From positions 47,350-111,349 of the forward strand of contig PFWU01000049.1 of assembly GCA_002791295.1 (NCBI GenBank): a stretch of 64,000 nt of DNA, in the 5' to 3' direction. Of this stretch, positions 31,306 through 63,906 are shown one piece after another. Source of the stretch: Candidatus Uhrbacteria bacterium CG_4_9_14_3_um_filter_50_9 (GTDB lineage: Bacteria > Patescibacteriota > Patescibacteriia > UBA9934 > GWF2-40-263). Within the stretch, counting starts at the first letter, position 1. The number at the start of each line of letters is the position of its first letter. The translations under genes were made by a program, and so were the position numbers. A model generated the notes under the pieces. It was not told where the DNA came from and made no database searches. It saw nothing but the letters and a program-made list of their open reading frames with translations.

Positions 31306-31584
31306 TTAGTCAAATAGATTAGAATGTGAGCCTGTGGCGATCAGTTGAAGAATAAGAATATCATTATCGATTCTATAAATCAGGAGCCAGTCTGGCTCAA
31401 CATGACATTCTCGAAACATATTTAATGACCCTTTCAACTGATGGTCACGATGTGACACGTCAAGCTCTTTTTTGGCAGCGAGTCTATCGACAACAGATAA
31501 CAATTTTTTGAATAAAACCTCATCCGATCGCCTTAATTTTTTCAACTGACGTTTACATCGCTTTGTTGGAACAATTCGATACAT
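31306..31584 (-). CDS. yafQ: Type II toxin YafQ (RelE/ParE superfamily mRNA interferase)
   Basis: 92 aa. DHQLKGSLNMFRECHVEPDWLLIYRIDND...ATGSHSNLF closely parallels E. coli YafQ. Confidence 0.8.
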   Translation of the reverse strand: MYRIVPTKRCKRQLKKLRRSDEVLFKKLLSVVDRLAAKKELDVSHRDHQLKGSLNMFRECHVEPDWLLIYRIDNDILILQLIATGSHSNLFD

Positions 31585-31586
31585 AT

Positions 31587-31922
31587 CTAGATGGTCAAAT
31601 CCTTGAGCAGTTCCTTTGTTGATGTGTATCCTTTGAGTTTTCCTGTTTTATACGCCTCAAGTGCCTGATTCGACTCGTCAATGAGCGCTTGTTCCTGTAG
31701 AGGGGTCATGTCGTTTTCCGTTGTGAGCGGAAACGGAATACCTTTGCGTAATGAAATCTGACGCAAATAAAGCTTTACCGCCATGCTCATATCCATCCCT
31801 AATTGATCAAGGACCTTTTTGGCGTCGTTCTTTGTTTTGTCATCAATACGAATTTGAATATGACCCATATGCTTATAGGATATCTGATCTGTCATGACAA
31901 TGTCAATACATCCACAACACAT
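31587..31922 (-). CDS. dinJ: Antitoxin DinJ/RelB family
   Basis: 111 aa. Ribbon-helix-helix N-terminus IRIDDKTKNDAKKVLDQLGMDMSMAVKLYLRQI. Lies 3 nt upstream of the toxin gene. Confidence 0.75.
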   Translation of the reverse strand: MCCGCIDIVMTDQISYKHMGHIQIRIDDKTKNDAKKVLDQLGMDMSMAVKLYLRQISLRKGIPFPLTTENDMTPLQEQALIDESNQALEAYKTGKLKGYTSTKELLKDLTI

Positions 31923-32064
31923 CTATTGAAAAAATTCAATCTTTGTGCCTAAATAGGCCCTTCTCTCACAACCCCTGCTGGGACGCAGCGGTGCGGGTGC
32001 CCATGGTGGGTACACCAAACTTAAGCGACTGGATCAGGGAGTTCGCGGAGAAGAGGAGAGAGTC

Positions 32065-33219
32065 ATGAGTCGAGTGGAAGCAGAGGACATCTACGCCCTC
32101 ATGGAAGCACTGCGTGCGCGCAGGGGCTACATCAGTGCCGAGGACCTCCGTGCGCTCATCGAACGCCGCGGCGGCCCGATCATCCCGGAGCTTCAAGGCC
32201 ACACGGTGGTCGAGATGAAACGGTTGCCCAAGGGGACGAACACGACAGGAGACGGTCGACCCTACACCAACAACCGTGCGATCAGTCAGCTTCAGGTTGA
32301 CCCCGCAGGACATCCGGCGTGGGTCAACAAAGAGTCGGGCAAAACAGTCGTGCGCCACGACAAGTGTGTGCACGCAAGCCCGAATCCTGACGGCTGGAGC
32401 GGGCTCAATGTGGAACTCATCGACTTCCTCCCGAATCCTGATGGATCGTGGACGCCCCGTTGGAGCCGGGGTCCAATGAGAACGATTCATGGTGAGCGGC
32501 TGGAGATCTACCATGGTGGCCGACAGCAGCCCGAACGCGACGGACTCATTGACTTCTACCCGCAGCCGGACGGCAGGATCGTGCGTGTGTACAAGATGCC
32601 CAAGGACAGTGGCATCGGATACCGCATCATGCTCGACGCAGATGTCCTGCACGACAGTCACCCCGCTGCTTCCGAGTGCAGAAACATCGTCCAGGCTCCC
32701 GACGGAACTTGGTACGCCCTGCACGGCACCTACGTGAGGAACGGTTTCATCGCTCGTCCACTTGTGGAGGACAGTGACAGGGTCACCGACATCGCCGCGG
32801 TCGATCTCGCCCTACACAGCGGCACCCTCTACCTCATCGCAGACCACACGAAGGTGCCTGACAACACCACTCAGCCCGAGTTCCGCGCTGCCGTGCACAA
32901 ACGACTGGGTACGGGTGTCACCGTCATCTCTCTTACCAAGATTCCCTACAAGCGCTGGTTCACGCCCGATGTTGCGCAGGGTGGCTACGAGGAGGAGCCG
33001 ACTTACCTAGGCGAGACCTACGTCGGCCAGGTCGGTGACGGAAACGCACGGTTCGAAACCTGGATCGCCCAGAACTTCTACCCCGACACCCCGCCGCTCC
33101 TCGTCGGCCCCAACTGGGACCACGTGAGCCAGACCTTTCAGGATCCCGAGTACGGCCTGTGCTACTGGGCCGTGGCCGGAATGCACCTCTACAAGGTGGC
33201 CTTCAGCCCCTACGGCTAG
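32065..33219 (+). CDS. Hypothetical protein encoded in a high-GC (~63 %) single-gene island; contains repeated F/Y-x-P-N/Q-PDG-S/R motifs
   Basis: 384-aa ORF with RBS gagaagaggag before the ATG. A GC-rich leader runs from ~31966. An intrinsic terminator follows directly after the stop. The antisense ORF 31966..32724 is judged spurious. Confidence 0.55.
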   Translation: MSRVEAEDIYALMEALRARRGYISAEDLRALIERRGGPIIPELQGHTVVEMKRLPKGTNTTGDGRPYTNNRAISQLQVDPAGHPAWVNKESGKTVVRHDKCVHASPNPDGWSGLNVELIDFLPNPDGSWTPRWSRGPMRTIHGERLEIYHGGRQQPERDGLIDFYPQPDGRIVRVYKMPKDSGIGYRIMLDADVLHDSHPAASECRNIVQAPDGTWYALHGTYVRNGFIARPLVEDSDRVTDIAAVDLALHSGTLYLIADHTKVPDNTTQPEFRAAVHKRLGTGVTVISLTKIPYKRWFTPDVAQGGYEEEPTYLGETYVGQVGDGNARFETWIAQNFYPDTPPLLVGPNWDHVSQTFQDPEYGLCYWAVAGMHLYKVAFSPYG

Positions 33220-33226
33220 TCCAACG

Positions 33227-33258
33227 TCCGATCTCCCCGAGAGGTCGGATTTCTTTTT
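33227..33258 (+). terminator. Rho-independent terminator after the island ORF
   Basis: tccgatctc-cccga-gaggtcgga followed by tttcttttt. Confidence 0.65.
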
Positions 33259-33299
33259 AATGGATTCTCCATTGACAAAACAAGCCAAACTTGATAAAG

Positions 33300-33436
33300 A
33301 AGGGGCATCTTGTGTGTGGAATATGGTGTGAATCCGTAACTGTCTCTCTGCAACTGTGAGGTTACCCAACCCAACCGAGTCAGATCTTCACTCAAGTGCA
33401 CCCCAAGTACTGCCTCAGAGAGGGCAGTATTTTTAT
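33300..33436 (+). ncRNA. Candidate small RNA or cis-acting leader (~135 nt) between a TTGACA promoter and an intrinsic terminator, upstream of rseP
   Basis: -35 TTGACA at 33272-33277, a 17-nt spacer, and a TAAAGA -10-like hexamer. Terminator actgcct-cagaga-gggcagt plus atttttattt at 33409-33436. No convincing ORF. Confidence 0.4.
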
Positions 33437-33494
33437 TTCGTTATTCAATGTTTGTTTGATCAACTGCACGTAAACAGGTATCCTTTACTAACTT

Positions 33495-47428: not shown

Positions 47429-47836
47429 ATGGCTATCATCAGCCTTTCCGCCCGAGACGGGCGTATCGGTGAGGTCTGTCGACAGGCCCTGCCCAGAACC
47501 CCGCGAGTTGCCGAGTACCTCACCCGGCGCCTTGAGGCACTGGGTGGAAGTGAACGTGTGGCCAATCTGATCTTGGCCCGCCTCCCGACAGGTGCCCACG
47601 TCGACAGCGAGGTGATCACTCGCTTGTGTGTCGACAATGACCTCGACGCAATGAAGCGGCTCATGGACTGGTATGGGGACACCCTCGATACCTCCATGAC
47701 GGCCCTCAGCCTTCAGCTCCATGCGAGCCTGGGGGGCGTGGCGAGCGATCGGATCACCGAGTTCATCCGCGTGTACGTCTGCACGCGAAGCATGCTCAGC
47801 GGGGTCGAGTTCGACCCGCGGGCGATCGCGGCCTGA
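47429..47836 (+). CDS. Hypothetical protein encoded in a high-GC (~63 %) single-gene island
   Basis: 135-aa ORF with a strong RBS, a coding-confined GC anomaly, and a perfect intrinsic terminator directly after the stop. The antisense ORF 47399..47995 is judged spurious. Confidence 0.5.
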   Translation: MAIISLSARDGRIGEVCRQALPRTPRVAEYLTRRLEALGGSERVANLILARLPTGAHVDSEVITRLCVDNDLDAMKRLMDWYGDTLDTSMTALSLQLHASLGGVASDRITEFIRVYVCTRSMLSGVEFDPRAIAA

Positions 47837-62592: not shown

Positions 62593-63906
62593 TCAGGTCA
62601 TCTCGACGAAGCCGAGGGGGTCGATGATCGCACGGATCGTCTCCATGATCTCGGGTTCGATGCCGTCGATCTCGGGGAAGAATCCACCCACGGCGCCGAT
62701 GGGGGTCTGGCGCAGGATCTGGTTGGGCCAGATCATCAGGCGGTAGAGTGCAGGTTCGCGCCTCGGGTCCACCGTGATCTGGCGGTGCACGGCGATGAAG
62801 CCGGCCCAGTACTGGCCATTCCCCTCACCACCCCGAGACCAGAAGCTGGTCGCAATGGTCAGTCGACCATCGAAGAGCCTCAGGATGCGGAAGTCGTCGT
62901 GGTAGACGAAGCTGCCGGTGTCGTTGAGCTCCTGTGCCGGAGCCCAGTCGTCGTGACCGGTCAGGGTCTCGACCCAGCACTCGAAGGCGGATCTGGCTCG
63001 ATCCATTTGATACCGACCACGGCGGTCCATCCGCTCATGGATTTCGATCCGCTTCTCTCGGCCTAGGCTCTGGTTCACCAGGCTGACCCACTCTCCCGGT
63101 GTCCGCTCGCTCGGGATGAAACCTCGCAGTTCCCGGATCTCGTCGATTGGCTTGACTGGCAGAAGCCCGTAGCAGGTGTAGGGCTCGGGCTGCTGGGTGC
63201 GAATCTCGAATGAGGGTGTCGGCGTTTCTTGTTCACCCGGGATGAACCCGAAGCGGGAGAGGATAAGGATGTCGCGGGCCCAGGCCATGGGGATGAAGAT
63301 CTTATCTATTGGCCACTTCTTGAGGTCTATGTTCCTCTGGAGCACCTTCCAGTCGGTCGTATCATAGCCCCACTGAGTTGCACCCGAGCAGTCGCCGTCC
63401 TTGGGAACGGTTTCGTAGATGCGGAAGCGGCCGGCCGCCGACCAGATGGCGGCGTTGGGCTCGTAGTAGCTGGACGGGGAGACCGGCGCAAAGGCACGCA
63501 GACACTTGATCGGTTCCATGACGATGGCCGTTGCGACGTCCGTCAGGCGGACGTAGCGGACCGGCTTCTCGCCAATCTTGAGGTTGGTCTCGATACTCTC
63601 GAGATCGACCGGATTGAACGTGCGGAACAGTTCGTCATTGAGTGCCTGTTGGGCGACCCGTACGCAGTCGCGCCGGTAGCCGCTTTGGCTTGGGTACTGC
63701 TGGTCGTCGGCGATGCAGATAGCTGCGAAGGGCTTGTCGCATACGAGCAGGAGGTCGACTGTGTTGGACCAGGCGTGCGACTCCCGCCTGTGCATGTCGC
63801 TGATCTGGTGGACCATCACCTCTTCCTGGGTGACACCTAGTACACGGATGAATCGCGTCACGACCTGGGTGTGTGGGCGCAGTCGTACGTCCGAGTGACC
63901 CTCCAT
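62593..63906 (-). CDS. Hypothetical protein encoded in a high-GC (~63 %) segment running to the window end
   Basis: 437-aa ORF. The GC-rich region continues past 63990, so the island and possibly further genes extend beyond the window. The start is uncertain. The plus-strand ORFs 63229..63840 and 63713..63898 are judged spurious. Confidence 0.45.
   Translation of the reverse strand: MEGHSDVRLRPHTQVVTRFIRVLGVTQEEVMVHQISDMHRRESHAWSNTVDLLLVCDKPFAAICIADDQQYPSQSGYRRDCVRVAQQALNDELFRTFNPVDLESIETNLKIGEKPVRYVRLTDVATAIVMEPIKCLRAFAPVSPSSYYEPNAAIWSAAGRFRIYETVPKDGDCSGATQWGYDTTDWKVLQRNIDLKKWPIDKIFIPMAWARDILILSRFGFIPGEQETPTPSFEIRTQQPEPYTCYGLLPVKPIDEIRELRGFIPSERTPGEWVSLVNQSLGREKRIEIHERMDRRGRYQMDRARSAFECWVETLTGHDDWAPAQELNDTGSFVYHDDFRILRLFDGRLTIATSFWSRGGEGNGQYWAGFIAVHRQITVDPRREPALYRLMIWPNQILRQTPIGAVGGFFPEIDGIEPEIMETIRAIIDPLGFVEMT

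What the first reader, a model, noticed from the sequence alone, without database searches (positions are those of the whole stretch)
31966..33258. Second high-GC island (384-aa orphan ORF with [FY]xP[NQ]PDG repeats) next to a yafQ-dinJ toxin-antitoxin module
Seen in sequence. Between 31966 and 33220 the GC rises to about 63 %, and the boundaries are abrupt: AT-rich dinJ upstream, and a host-style terminator plus a TTGACA promoter downstream. The single ORF shows internal repeats FLPNPDGSW / FYPQPDGRI / QAPDGTW (possibly propeller or lectin-like blades). No catalytic motif was recognised.

TA modules commonly stabilise or flank horizontally acquired DNA (established knowledge). The donor lineage would be a high-GC organism. 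If the organism is a Saccharibacteria-like episymbiont of Actinobacteria (inference), host-to-symbiont gene transfer is a natural hypothesis.
Basis: partly seen in the sequence, partly recalled or inferred. Interest (0 to 1): 0.55.

Follow-up and report, generated by a model that had tools for sequence, protein, structure and literature searches.

The report
GC-rich orphan gene with structured leader
The GC-rich island is a real, self-contained 1.3-kb single-gene unit in a Candidatus Uhrbacteria genome; it encodes a protein found only in that lineage, preceded by an undescribed 95-nt folded leader RNA, and nothing shows it was captured from a high-GC host such as Actinobacteria.

Summary
Window 31,960-33,240 is 61.5 % GC against 49 % for the window. 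The 384-aa ORF (32065-33219, +) has GC3 0.76, against 0.40-0.57 for 41 other ORFs. A YafQ/DinJ pair lies divergently upstream.

The organism is Candidatus Uhrbacteria CG_4_9_14_3_um_filter_50_9, not a Saccharibacteria-like symbiont. Searches of 5.8 and 1.84 billion proteins found four other clusters, all on 46-52 % GC Uhrbacteria-type contigs. None was actinobacterial, viral or plasmid-borne. The homologues sit at other chromosomal sites and are also GC3-enriched. Two more orphan ORFs in the window share the same foreign codon usage.

The new result is a ~95-nt 5' leader (31960-32055), conserved ahead of every family member. It folds into a three-helix hairpin: 99 % of cells paired, and 16 of 32 pairs with compensatory changes against 3-4 in slid controls. 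It has no Rfam match.

The protein is under purifying selection at both ends (dN/dS about 0.15) and diverges fast in the middle. It is cytoplasmic and beta-rich, with weak propeller-like fold matches. Its function is unknown.

Best reading: a leader-equipped accessory gene unit exchanged within Uhrbacteria.

The parts
31926..31955 (+). Putative promoter of the unit: -35 TTGAAA (31926-31931) and -10 CTAAAT/TAAATA (31949-31955), preceded by TG
   Evidence: Inferred from the sequence. It is weakly conserved in position with L001/L007: ATTGA...CTGTGCYTA. The consensus scanner did not call it.
31960..32055 (+). Structured 5' leader RNA: three co-axial helices with internal loops, an invariant AU bulge and a GGAUC motif
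   Evidence: RNAalifold on five leaders gives 32 pairs, 16 with compensatory changes. 99.4 % of cells are paired, against 33-51 % when slid, and 0 of 500 shuffles reach the observed value. The covariance model R1 scores 88.9 bits here and matches nothing else in the window. An untrained, truncated copy is found upstream of P0004 in L013. No Rfam family matches.
32054..32062 (+). Shine-Dalgarno sequence AGGAGAGAG, 6 nt before the ATG
   Evidence: Read from the sequence. It is identical in L001 and L007.
32065..33219 (+). CDS of 384 aa (PJA45148.1, hypothetical protein CO174_04930); cytoplasmic and beta-rich
32065..32229 (+). Conserved N-terminal module (aa 1-55), predicted to hold two helices
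   Evidence: 72-74 % aa identity to P0002/P0003. It is also recognisable in P0004, P0005 and the L016 paralogue.
32380..32706 (+). Variable central region carrying the P[NQ]PDG / APDG turn motifs (aa 106-110, 123-127, 166-170, 212-214). P0002/P0003 lack about 75 aa here
32932..33216 (+). Conserved C-terminal module (aa 290-384): YKRW, ETW, W[DQ][HY]VS..F, CYWA, LYKVAF
   Evidence: 75-82 % aa identity to P0002/P0003 with dN/dS 0.14-0.16. This is the only part matched by the remote hits P0004 and P0005 in the profile search.
33226..33258 (+). Intrinsic terminator. Its 3' half, GGTCGGATTTCTTTTT, is shared with the terminator of the L001/L007 homologues
31587..31922 (-). dinJ/relB antitoxin. The likely start is at 31868, giving 93 aa
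   Evidence: Pfam RelB at E 7.8e-13, with the match starting at residue 19 of the long ORF. Public gene calls give 93 or 102 aa.
31306..31584 (-). yafQ toxin, 92 aa. It is AT-rich: GC 37 %, GC3 0.33
   Evidence: Pfam YafQ_toxin at 96.2 bits against a cut-off of 30. Composition.
31877..31906 (-). Promoter-like site for dinJ-yafQ (TTGACA-18-TATCCT), back to back with the promoter of the GC-rich unit
   Evidence: a consensus match only.

Best explanation
The island is a complete accessory transcription unit of about 1.3 kb. It has an inferred promoter, then a ~95-nt leader RNA that folds into an irregular three-helix hairpin right at the 5' end of the transcript. A strong Shine-Dalgarno sequence, a 384-aa gene and its own terminator follow.

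The protein is cytoplasmic and beta-rich. It is probably built of PDG-turn beta-hairpin blades, propeller-like. Its N- and C-terminal modules are conserved, while the central blades are indel-prone and diverge rapidly.

The unit belongs to a very small family seen only in Candidatus Uhrbacteria-type genomes. It occupies different chromosomal sites in different lineages, once as a tandem pair. Everywhere it keeps a higher GC3 than its host. It shares its codon usage with at least two other orphan genes of the same genome.

I therefore read it as a member of an accessory gene pool specific to this lineage, with its own base composition and exchanged among Uhrbacteria. I do not read it as a gene captured from a high-GC host.

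Mechanism (inferred). The leader acts after transcription, either as a 5'-terminal hairpin that stabilises the mRNA or as a binding platform, possibly for the encoded protein itself. The protein is most likely a non-enzymatic binding scaffold whose variable blades recognise a variable partner. That pattern, together with the TA neighbours at two of four sites, points to a conflict-related role involving phage, host or competitor.

Shown: the composition, the boundaries, the restricted distribution, the different insertion sites, the purifying selection and the RNA structure. Inferred: the promoter, the mode of mobility, the role of the leader and the function of the protein.
For: Composition and codon usage: GC3 0.758, z = 6.6. 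Codon usage correlates at r = 0.66-0.79 with the two other GC-rich ORFs and at about 0 with host genes.

Distribution: only P0001-P0005 among 5.8e9 and 1.84e9 proteins. The named sources are Candidatus Uhrbacteria or Patescibacteria.

Sites: dinJ|rseP here, DUF433-Fic|S1-ftsH in L001-L009, after ftsA-ftsZ in L010/L016, and after a PEGA protein in L013.

GC3 of homologues against their neighbours: 0.79 against 0.48-0.64; 0.75 against 0.48-0.62; 0.70 against 0.51-0.73; 0.55 and 0.50 against 0.37-0.44.

Unit boundaries: DNA similarity to L001/L007 starts abruptly at about 31958 and stops after the stop codon and terminator.

Leader: 16 of 32 pairs covary, 99.4 % of cells are paired, slid controls give 33-51 %, and 0 of 500 shuffles reach the observed value. 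Invariant G-U pairs place the structure on the sense strand. The leader is 76 % identical to L001, while synonymous sites are only about 45-54 % identical. The model finds the leader only ahead of family genes, including the untrained L013 copy.

Coding: dN/dS is 0.14-0.20 at the ends and about 0.5 in the middle.

Background: published work on 125 aquifer Patescibacteria genomes reports that most single-gene transfers occur between Patescibacteria (PMC12455944).
Against: No recombinase, tRNA or flanking repeat marks the unit in this window. No empty site was found, because all population contigs carry the island. Mobility is therefore inferred from the differing sites alone.

Only six leader copies from four lineages exist, so the covariation rests on few independent events.

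The consensus structure does not sequester the Shine-Dalgarno sequence and has no terminator, so no expression platform is evident. The single-sequence folding z-score is only -1.1.

No donor with matching composition was identified.

High GC3 persists across dS of about 0.7-1.4. That could reflect selection or biased gene conversion in place rather than a foreign pool.
Confidence: 0.55

Rival explanations
1. One reading: a recent transfer from a high-GC organism, for example an actinobacterial host of an episymbiont, with the neighbouring TA module stabilising the acquired DNA.
For: GC3 is 0.76 in a genome with GC3 of 0.48. The boundaries are abrupt. A TA pair is adjacent. Donors may be unsampled, a limitation that PMC12455944 also notes.
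Against: The organism is Uhrbacteria. No homologue exists outside Uhrbacteria-type contigs among 1.84e9 representative proteins, and none of the contigs carrying the family is GC-rich. Copies that differ by dS of about 1 all keep a high GC3. A single recent import followed by amelioration would not produce that. Two unrelated orphan genes in the window show the same codon usage, and the one searched is equally lineage-restricted.
Confidence: 0.06
2. A vertically inherited, lineage-specific Uhrbacteria gene. On this view its high GC3 is maintained in place, either by selection (for example for mRNA stability or structure) or by GC-biased gene conversion at a recombination-prone locus, and not by foreign origin.
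For: The family is restricted to one candidate phylum. GC3 is elevated in every copy despite synonymous divergence near saturation. The pattern of conserved ends and a variable middle suits recombination anchored in the ends. The Saanich Inlet copies lie much closer to host composition, at +0.1.
Against: There are four different chromosomal contexts and no shared synteny. The family is extremely patchy: one hit among 185,579 GTDB species representatives. The leader and terminator are conserved as a block with sharp edges. Three unrelated genes share one foreign codon usage.
Confidence: 0.2
3. A phage- or plasmid-derived moron or defence gene. On this view the unit is cargo of a mobile element of Uhrbacteria, and together with the TA pair it forms a small defence or conflict islet.
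For: TA-like pairs lie divergently adjacent at two of four sites. The central region diverges quickly. The unit is self-contained, with its own promoter and terminator. An ~80-nt direct repeat flanks the gene in L001/L007.
Against: No relative and no leader match was found in IMG/VR. None was found in GenBank phages or in PLSDB plasmids. There is no PADLOC or PHROG hit. No phage or integrase gene lies within 5 kb.
Confidence: 0.15
4. An artefact: a chimeric assembly, or a spurious ORF of the kind that GC-rich DNA produces in several frames.
For: GC-rich DNA does give long ORFs in other frames, for example the 252-aa antisense ORF at 31966-32724.
Against: The same junctions occur in at least ten independent assemblies. 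Homologues of 306-375 aa are conserved, with dN/dS well below 1 in the + frame.
Confidence: 0.01

Closest known systems
Structured 5'-UTR cis-regulatory RNAs (riboswitches, ribosomal-protein leaders, 5'-terminal stabiliser hairpins such as the ompA 5' UTR)
   Same: A sense-strand element that begins at the inferred transcript 5' end. Its secondary structure is conserved with many compensatory changes. It has invariant unpaired nucleotides (an AU bulge, a CAA loop, GGAUC). It always precedes the same gene family.
   Different: It matches none of the 4227 Rfam families. No terminator or SD-sequestering helix appears in the consensus. The ligand or binding protein is unknown. Only six copies are known.
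PD40 / TolB-type WD40-like beta-propeller repeats (Pfam PF07676) and the propellers of S9 peptidases
Compositionally atypical genomic islets next to type II TA modules (YafQ-DinJ)
   Same: The base composition is atypical, the edges are sharp, the island sits among housekeeping genes (pgm, rseP, pheST), and a bona fide YafQ/DinJ pair is adjacent.
   Different: It is a single gene with no integrase, tRNA or repeats in this window. The TA pair itself deviates in the opposite direction, at 37-43 % GC, so it is not part of the same import. The gene pool is lineage-specific rather than cross-phylum.
Integron gene cassettes with attC hairpins
   Same: A single-gene unit associated with an imperfect hairpin whose structure is conserved more than its sequence. 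In L001/L007 the gene lies between repeated hairpin-containing elements.
   Different: The hairpin is 5' of the ORF. It contains conserved G-U pairs, which point to RNA rather than DNA. The AAC/GTT core is not conserved. No integrase is nearby.

Membership tests
Type II toxin-antitoxin YafQ-DinJ (the neighbour, not the ORF) | The toxin matches the YafQ_toxin HMM above Pfam's gathering score | tested here: met
   96.2 bits against a cut-off of 30, E 1.5e-27
Type II toxin-antitoxin YafQ-DinJ (the neighbour, not the ORF) | A RelB/DinJ antitoxin lies immediately upstream on the same strand | tested here: met
   RelB at 48.6 bits against a cut-off of 22.4. The antitoxin ends at 31587 and the toxin starts at 31584
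Island acquired from a high-GC donor lineage | Composition differs from that of the host genome | tested here: met
   GC 61.6 % against 49.1 %. GC3 z = 6.6. Codon-usage correlation with the host is r = 0.11
Island acquired from a high-GC donor lineage | Closest homologues are in the proposed donor lineage (Actinobacteria or another high-GC taxon) | tested here: not met
   Only Uhrbacteria/Patescibacteria-type relatives were found, on 46-52 % GC contigs
Island acquired from a high-GC donor lineage | Mobility signatures at the borders (integrase, tRNA, direct repeats) | tested here: not met
   None in the window. An ~80-nt direct repeat flanks the homologue in L001/L007 only
Island acquired from a high-GC donor lineage | Patchy distribution and different insertion sites | tested here: met
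   Four different contexts. One hit among 185,579 GTDB species representatives
Cis-regulatory leader RNA / riboswitch | Conserved secondary structure supported by covariation | tested here: met
   16 of 32 pairs have compensatory changes. 99.4 % of cells are paired, against 33-51 % in slid controls, and 0 of 500 shuffles reach the observed value
Cis-regulatory leader RNA / riboswitch | Constant position in the 5' UTR of one gene family, on the sense strand | tested here: met
   Model R1 matches only directly upstream of family genes in six of six copies. The L013 copy is truncated, at 19.3 bits. G-U pairs are invariant at three positions
Cis-regulatory leader RNA / riboswitch | Membership of a described RNA family | tested here: not met
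   No relevant Rfam 15 match at E up to 10
Cis-regulatory leader RNA / riboswitch | An expression platform (terminator or SD-sequestering alternative helix) | tested here: inconclusive
   No U-run follows the hairpin. In the window, L001 and L007 the 5' CUCUC can alternatively pair with the SD GAGAG, but this is not possible in L016
Cis-regulatory leader RNA / riboswitch | Binding of a ligand or protein | not testable with these tools
   Needs in-line probing or EMSA
PD40 / WD40-like beta-propeller | Significant match to a propeller repeat HMM | tested here: not met
   No propeller family at E up to 10 in any of five members, apart from Reg_prop at E 0.2 in one
PD40 / WD40-like beta-propeller | A confident model with four-stranded blades in a closed ring | tested here: inconclusive
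Integron cassette (attC) | An intI integrase and conserved R''/R' cores (RYYYAAC/GTTRRRY), with the hairpin 3' of the ORF | tested here: not met
   No integrase within 5 kb. AAC/GUU is replaced by GGU/ACC and GGC/GUC in L016. The hairpin is 5' of the ORF
Diversity-generating retroelement target | A reverse transcriptase and a template repeat matching the variable region | tested here: not met
   No second copy of any part of the island exists in the 64-kb window. No RT is among the called neighbours

The most novel reading that the evidence does not exclude
The leader may be a new class of ligand- or protein-responsive regulatory RNA. The unrelated 437-aa GC-rich family carries its own conserved leader. 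Taken together, the two could mark an unrecognised system in Candidatus Uhrbacteria: a pool of GC3-rich single-gene cassettes, each with its own promoter, leader and terminator. On this reading the cassettes move between chromosomal sites and lineages by a mechanism that needs no recombinase in the cassette itself. Their products would be fast-evolving binding proteins used in symbiont-host or phage conflict.
Probability: 0.2. Interest if true: 0.7.

Novelty: new member of a known kind. Interest (0 to 1): 0.5.

Why it matters
CPR/Patescibacteria genomes are small and full of unannotated genes, and how they acquire and regulate accessory functions is poorly known.

This locus gives a concrete and testable example. 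It is a lineage-restricted gene that keeps a foreign synonymous composition across deep divergence and sits at different sites. It carries a leader RNA with unusually clean covariation that is absent from Rfam.

If the leader binds a ligand or its own protein, it would be one of very few regulatory RNAs defined in this radiation.

If GC3-rich, leader-equipped orphan units are general in Uhrbacteria (three lie in this 64-kb window), they point to one of two things. One is an unsampled mobile gene pool. The other is a local force, such as biased gene conversion or selection, acting on accessory genes.

The result also corrects the tempting idea of gene capture from an actinobacterial host.

Tried and rejected
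Family and homology searches all gave nothing useful. This covers Pfam, PHROGs and PADLOC. It also covers PDB sequence profiles of the whole protein and of the N- and C-terminal modules.

tblastn against phages and plasmids found nothing. IMG/VR scans with protein patterns and with a leader pattern also found nothing.

AF2 with three and then five sequences gave low-confidence models. The BFVD Foldseek hits have TM of 0.24 or less and are meaningless. The afdb50 library was unavailable.

I looked for an island-free empty site among population contigs that carry the same yafQ. All carry the island at 99.9-100 % identity.

Shared synteny between the window and the homologue loci: none.

Paralogy between the 384-aa ORF and the 437-aa GC-rich ORF: none.

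YafQ-resistance idea (avoidance of AAA codons): rejected. The ORF has 4 AAA codons, some followed by a purine.

uORF in the leader (the ATGA overlap at 32065): rejected. The reading frame is not conserved in L001/L007.

attC and DGR readings: rejected.

The ~80-nt flanking repeat of L001/L007 as a genome-wide REP element: rejected within the DNA held. It occurs only on the two sides of the gene.

Full report

In 150-nt windows, GC jumps from 0.35-0.37 at 31,750-31,970 to 0.59-0.65 from about 31,975 to 33,249. It then falls to 0.38-0.49. The island 31966-33240 is 61.5 % GC, against 49.1 % for the window.

The excess lies at synonymous sites. The 384-aa ORF (32065-33219, +) has GC1, GC2 and GC3 of 0.64, 0.45 and 0.76. 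Forty-one other ORFs have a mean GC3 of 0.485 (sd 0.041, maximum 0.566), so z = 6.6.

Upstream on the minus strand lie a YafQ toxin (E 1.5e-27) and a RelB/DinJ antitoxin (E 7.8e-13). Downstream are an intrinsic terminator (33226-33250 plus a T-run) and a TTGACA box (33273-33278).

The repeat claim is partly confirmed. LIDFLPNPDG and LIDFYPQPDG form a genuine internal repeat, reached by only 1 of 100 shuffles. A 15-nt DNA repeat underlies it. The other PDG motifs are weak.

The segment is not a misassembly. Independent JGI and ENA assemblies carry the same junctions at 99.9-100 % identity.

2. WHOSE GENOME, AND HOW WIDE THE FAMILY IS

Exact look-ups identify the window as Candidatus Uhrbacteria bacterium CG_4_9_14_3_um_filter_50_9. 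The ORF is PJA45148.1, annotated as a hypothetical protein. The organism is therefore a member of the CPR, but it is not Saccharibacteria.

A word-indexed search of 5.8 billion protein sequences found three hits:
- the protein itself;
- P0002 (306 aa, 45 % identity, Patescibacteria MAG);
- P0003 (314 aa, 43 % identity, Candidatus Uhrbacteria GW2011_GWA2_52_8d).

A full HMM search of 1.84 billion representatives added two remote, full-length relatives, P0004 and P0005.

A scan of one genome per GTDB species returned a single locus, in Candidatus Uhrbacteria SI072_bin28. There the gene is followed by a tandem paralogue.

The following searches added nothing:
- JGI metagenomes;
- IMG/VR;
- GenBank phages;
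- PLSDB plasmids.

No member matches Pfam, PHROGs, PADLOC or PDB sequences.

3. THE HIGH GC TRAVELS WITH THE GENE

All contigs that carry the family are 46-52 % GC overall, yet the gene is GC-enriched in each.

| Copy | GC3 of the gene | GC3 of its neighbours |
|---|---|---|
| P0002 | 0.79 | 0.48-0.64 |
| P0003 | 0.75 | 0.48-0.62 |
| P0004 | 0.70 | 0.51-0.73 |
| SI072_bin28, two copies | 0.55 and 0.50 | 0.37-0.44 |

The chromosomal contexts all differ:
- here, between dinJ and rseP;
- in L001-L009, between a DUF433 + Fic/Doc pair and S1-ftsH;
- in L010/L016, after ftsA-ftsZ;
- in L013, after a PEGA-domain gene.

No other gene is shared between the window and these loci.

Against P0002, dS is 0.7-1.0 at the conserved ends and about 1.4 in the middle. 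The copies are therefore old relative to synonymous turnover, yet all remain GC3-rich. One recent import from a high-GC host followed by amelioration would not look like this.

The window also holds two further orphan ORFs of the same kind. One is 62593-63906 (-), 437 aa, GC3 0.80. The other is 47429-47836 (+), 135 aa, GC3 0.77. The three share a codon usage (r = 0.66-0.79) that is uncorrelated with host genes (r about 0).

The 437-aa protein is unrelated to the 384-aa ORF. It behaves the same way, however. It has nine clusters, all named ones from Uhrbacteria or Patescibacteria. Its homologues are GC3-rich at yet other sites: 0.69 against about 0.38-0.46 in L030, and 0.88 against about 0.45 in L032.

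The best relatives are in low-to-mid-GC kin, and such genes recur in the genome.

MAG names show that Uhrbacteria span 36-58 % GC, and a 58 % GC genome comes from the same aquifer. A study of 125 aquifer Patescibacteria reports that most single-gene transfers occur within the group (PMC12455944). Both facts fit an intra-lineage gene pool.

4. THE EDGES OF THE UNIT

Aligned to L001/L007, nucleotide similarity begins abruptly at about 31958 (CTTCTCTCACAACCCCTGCTGGGACGC), roughly 105 nt before the ATG. Weaker similarity covers a promoter-like TTGA...TGTGCYTA region just upstream.

Similarity continues through the stop codon. The 3' half of the terminator, GGTCGGATTTCTTTTT, is also shared. That motif occurs nowhere else in the window or in the loci.

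The unit is therefore promoter, leader, CDS and terminator, spanning about 31926-33258.

In L001/L007 an ~80-nt element (terminator, small hairpin, TTGACG) is duplicated on both sides of the gene at 90-99 % identity. There is no such repeat here. This may be a relic of a tandem array like the one in L016, or of the insertion event itself. I could not decide between these.

5. THE LEADER IS A STRUCTURED RNA

This is the main new result.

Upstream regions align even for the 25 %-identical homologues. RNAalifold on five leaders, aligned by MAFFT and not fitted to any structure, predicts a 32-pair hairpin of three co-axial helices. Sixteen of those pairs show compensatory double changes.

Counting pairs on that alignment gives the following:
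- 99.4 % of cells form standard pairs, against 33-51 % when the 3' partners are slid by 1-3 columns;
- 16 pairs covary, against 3-4 in the slid controls;
- 0 of 500 column shuffles reach the observed values.

Three G-U pairs are invariant, so the fold belongs to the sense-strand RNA and not to DNA or an antisense transcript.

The leader is 76 % identical between the window and L001. Synonymous sites in the same genes are only about 45-54 % identical. The leader is therefore under constraint.

A covariance model built from the five leaders matches only directly upstream of family genes, at 86-102 bits. With filters off, its best hit in 40 kb of other DNA is a shortened version at L013 3222-3297. 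That lies immediately before P0004 and was not in the training set (19.3 bits, E 0.007).

Rfam 15 has no matching family.

The hairpin starts at the inferred transcript 5' end and stops just before the SD (AGGAGAGAG, 32054-32062). The consensus neither sequesters the SD nor contains a terminator. In the three groundwater copies the 5' CUCUC could alternatively pair with the SD, but this is not conserved in L016.

I therefore favour a 5'-terminal stabiliser or protein-binding operator over a classical riboswitch. This is inference.

6. THE PROTEIN

The + frame is truly coding. dN/dS is 0.14-0.20 in the N-terminal 58 and C-terminal 95 codons and about 0.5 in the centre. P0002/P0003 lack about 75 residues there, and P0003 carries a fresh 7-aa tandem duplication.

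There is no transmembrane segment or signal-like N-terminus. The maximum Kyte-Doolittle score over 19 residues is 1.26.

AF2 gave pLDDT 36.5 with three sequences and 48.6 with five. The model has two N-terminal helices followed by about 24 beta strands in hairpins. The PDG, DG and SG motifs sit at the turns.

No invariant set of catalytic-looking residues is evident.

The protein has conserved ends and a variable, indel-prone centre. At two of four sites it lies next to a TA-like pair. From these two facts I infer a binding scaffold with a variable recognition surface, possibly used in conflict with phage, host or competitors. Confidence in this last step is low, at about 0.2.

7. ALTERNATIVES CONSIDERED

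- Host-to-symbiont transfer from Actinobacteria. There is no homologue, the organism is different, and the high GC3 is persistent. About 0.06.
- Vertical gene with GC3 maintained by selection or biased gene conversion. This is not excluded and fits the deep persistence of GC3. It fits poorly with four unrelated sites, extreme patchiness and the block-like edges. About 0.2.
- Phage or plasmid cargo, or a defence islet. This is attractive, but no viral, plasmid or defence-database support exists. About 0.15.
- Artefact. Excluded.
- attC cassette and DGR target. Tested and not met.

8. VERDICT

The finding is a genuine compositional island, but its proposed origin is not supported.

What is there is a self-contained accessory gene unit restricted to Uhrbacteria. 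It carries a previously undescribed leader RNA with strong covariation support, and it encodes a probable repeat-blade binding protein of unknown function. It is one of at least three GC3-rich orphan units in this 64-kb window.

It is a new member of known kinds: the cis-regulatory leader RNA and the accessory islet. Interest is moderate.

Noticed in passing
window 33289-33437 (+): A match to the AdoCbl (B12) riboswitch aptamer RF01482 at 44.6 bits, below the gathering score of 50, with E 2.6e-7. It lies between a TTGACA box (33273-33278) and rseP (33495). Its last hairpin (33405-33432) is followed by a T-run, like a terminator-type expression platform. A B12 riboswitch ahead of rseP-pheS-pheT would be unusual.
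   Followed up: partly
window 62593-63906 (-), with loci L030, L032, L033 and L034: A second GC-rich orphan ORF (437 aa, GC3 0.80, PJA45172.1). Its family of nine clusters is seen only in Uhrbacteria/Patescibacteria. The homologues are also GC3-rich at other sites. They carry a different conserved leader, GGGAGGGTGGCGATAGCTTTCCC...TATCGC. L034 shows compensatory changes (CCAGCGAA/TTCGCCTGG), which suggests a hairpin and a possible pseudoknot.
   Followed up: partly
window 47429-47836 (+): A third GC-rich patch holds a 135-aa orphan ORF (GC 0.64, GC3 0.77) with no Pfam hit. It lies between a 638-aa gene and a miaB-like gene. Its codon usage matches that of the other two GC-rich ORFs.
   Followed up: partly
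L001 9768-9847 and 10931-11024; L007 9771-9850 and 10953-11046: An ~80-nt direct repeat (terminator, second hairpin, TTGACG) flanks the homologous gene on both sides. The two copies are 90 % identical in L001 and 99 % in L007. It occurs nowhere else in those loci. It could be a target duplication, a relic of a tandem array, or a recombination site.
   Followed up: partly
L016 8795-9922 and 10143-11117 (Candidatus Uhrbacteria SI072_bin28): Two tandem paralogues of the family lie directly after ftsA-ftsZ, each with its own copy of the leader. Their GC3 is only about 0.1 above the host's.
   Followed up: yes
L013 4414-4671: The stop codon of P0004 overlaps the start (ATGA) of a further GC-rich ORF (86 aa or more, GC3 0.70) that runs off the contig. 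This may be a two-gene version of the unit.
   Followed up: no
L007 10343-10384: A perfect 21-nt tandem duplication lies inside P0003 (YAYRVLY twice). It shows ongoing indel turnover in the variable central region.
   Followed up: no
window 31306-31584 (-): yafQ is an AT-rich outlier (GC 37 %, GC3 0.33) and sits directly beside the GC-rich outlier. Two neighbouring accessory pieces with opposite compositional bias suggest an insertion hotspot between pgm and rseP.
   Followed up: no
L032 2315-2752 and 14543-15781: Further GC3-rich genes without Pfam hits (GC3 0.73 and 0.76) lie scattered on a groundwater contig that carries the second family. This suggests that GC3-rich orphans are common in this lineage.
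   Followed up: no
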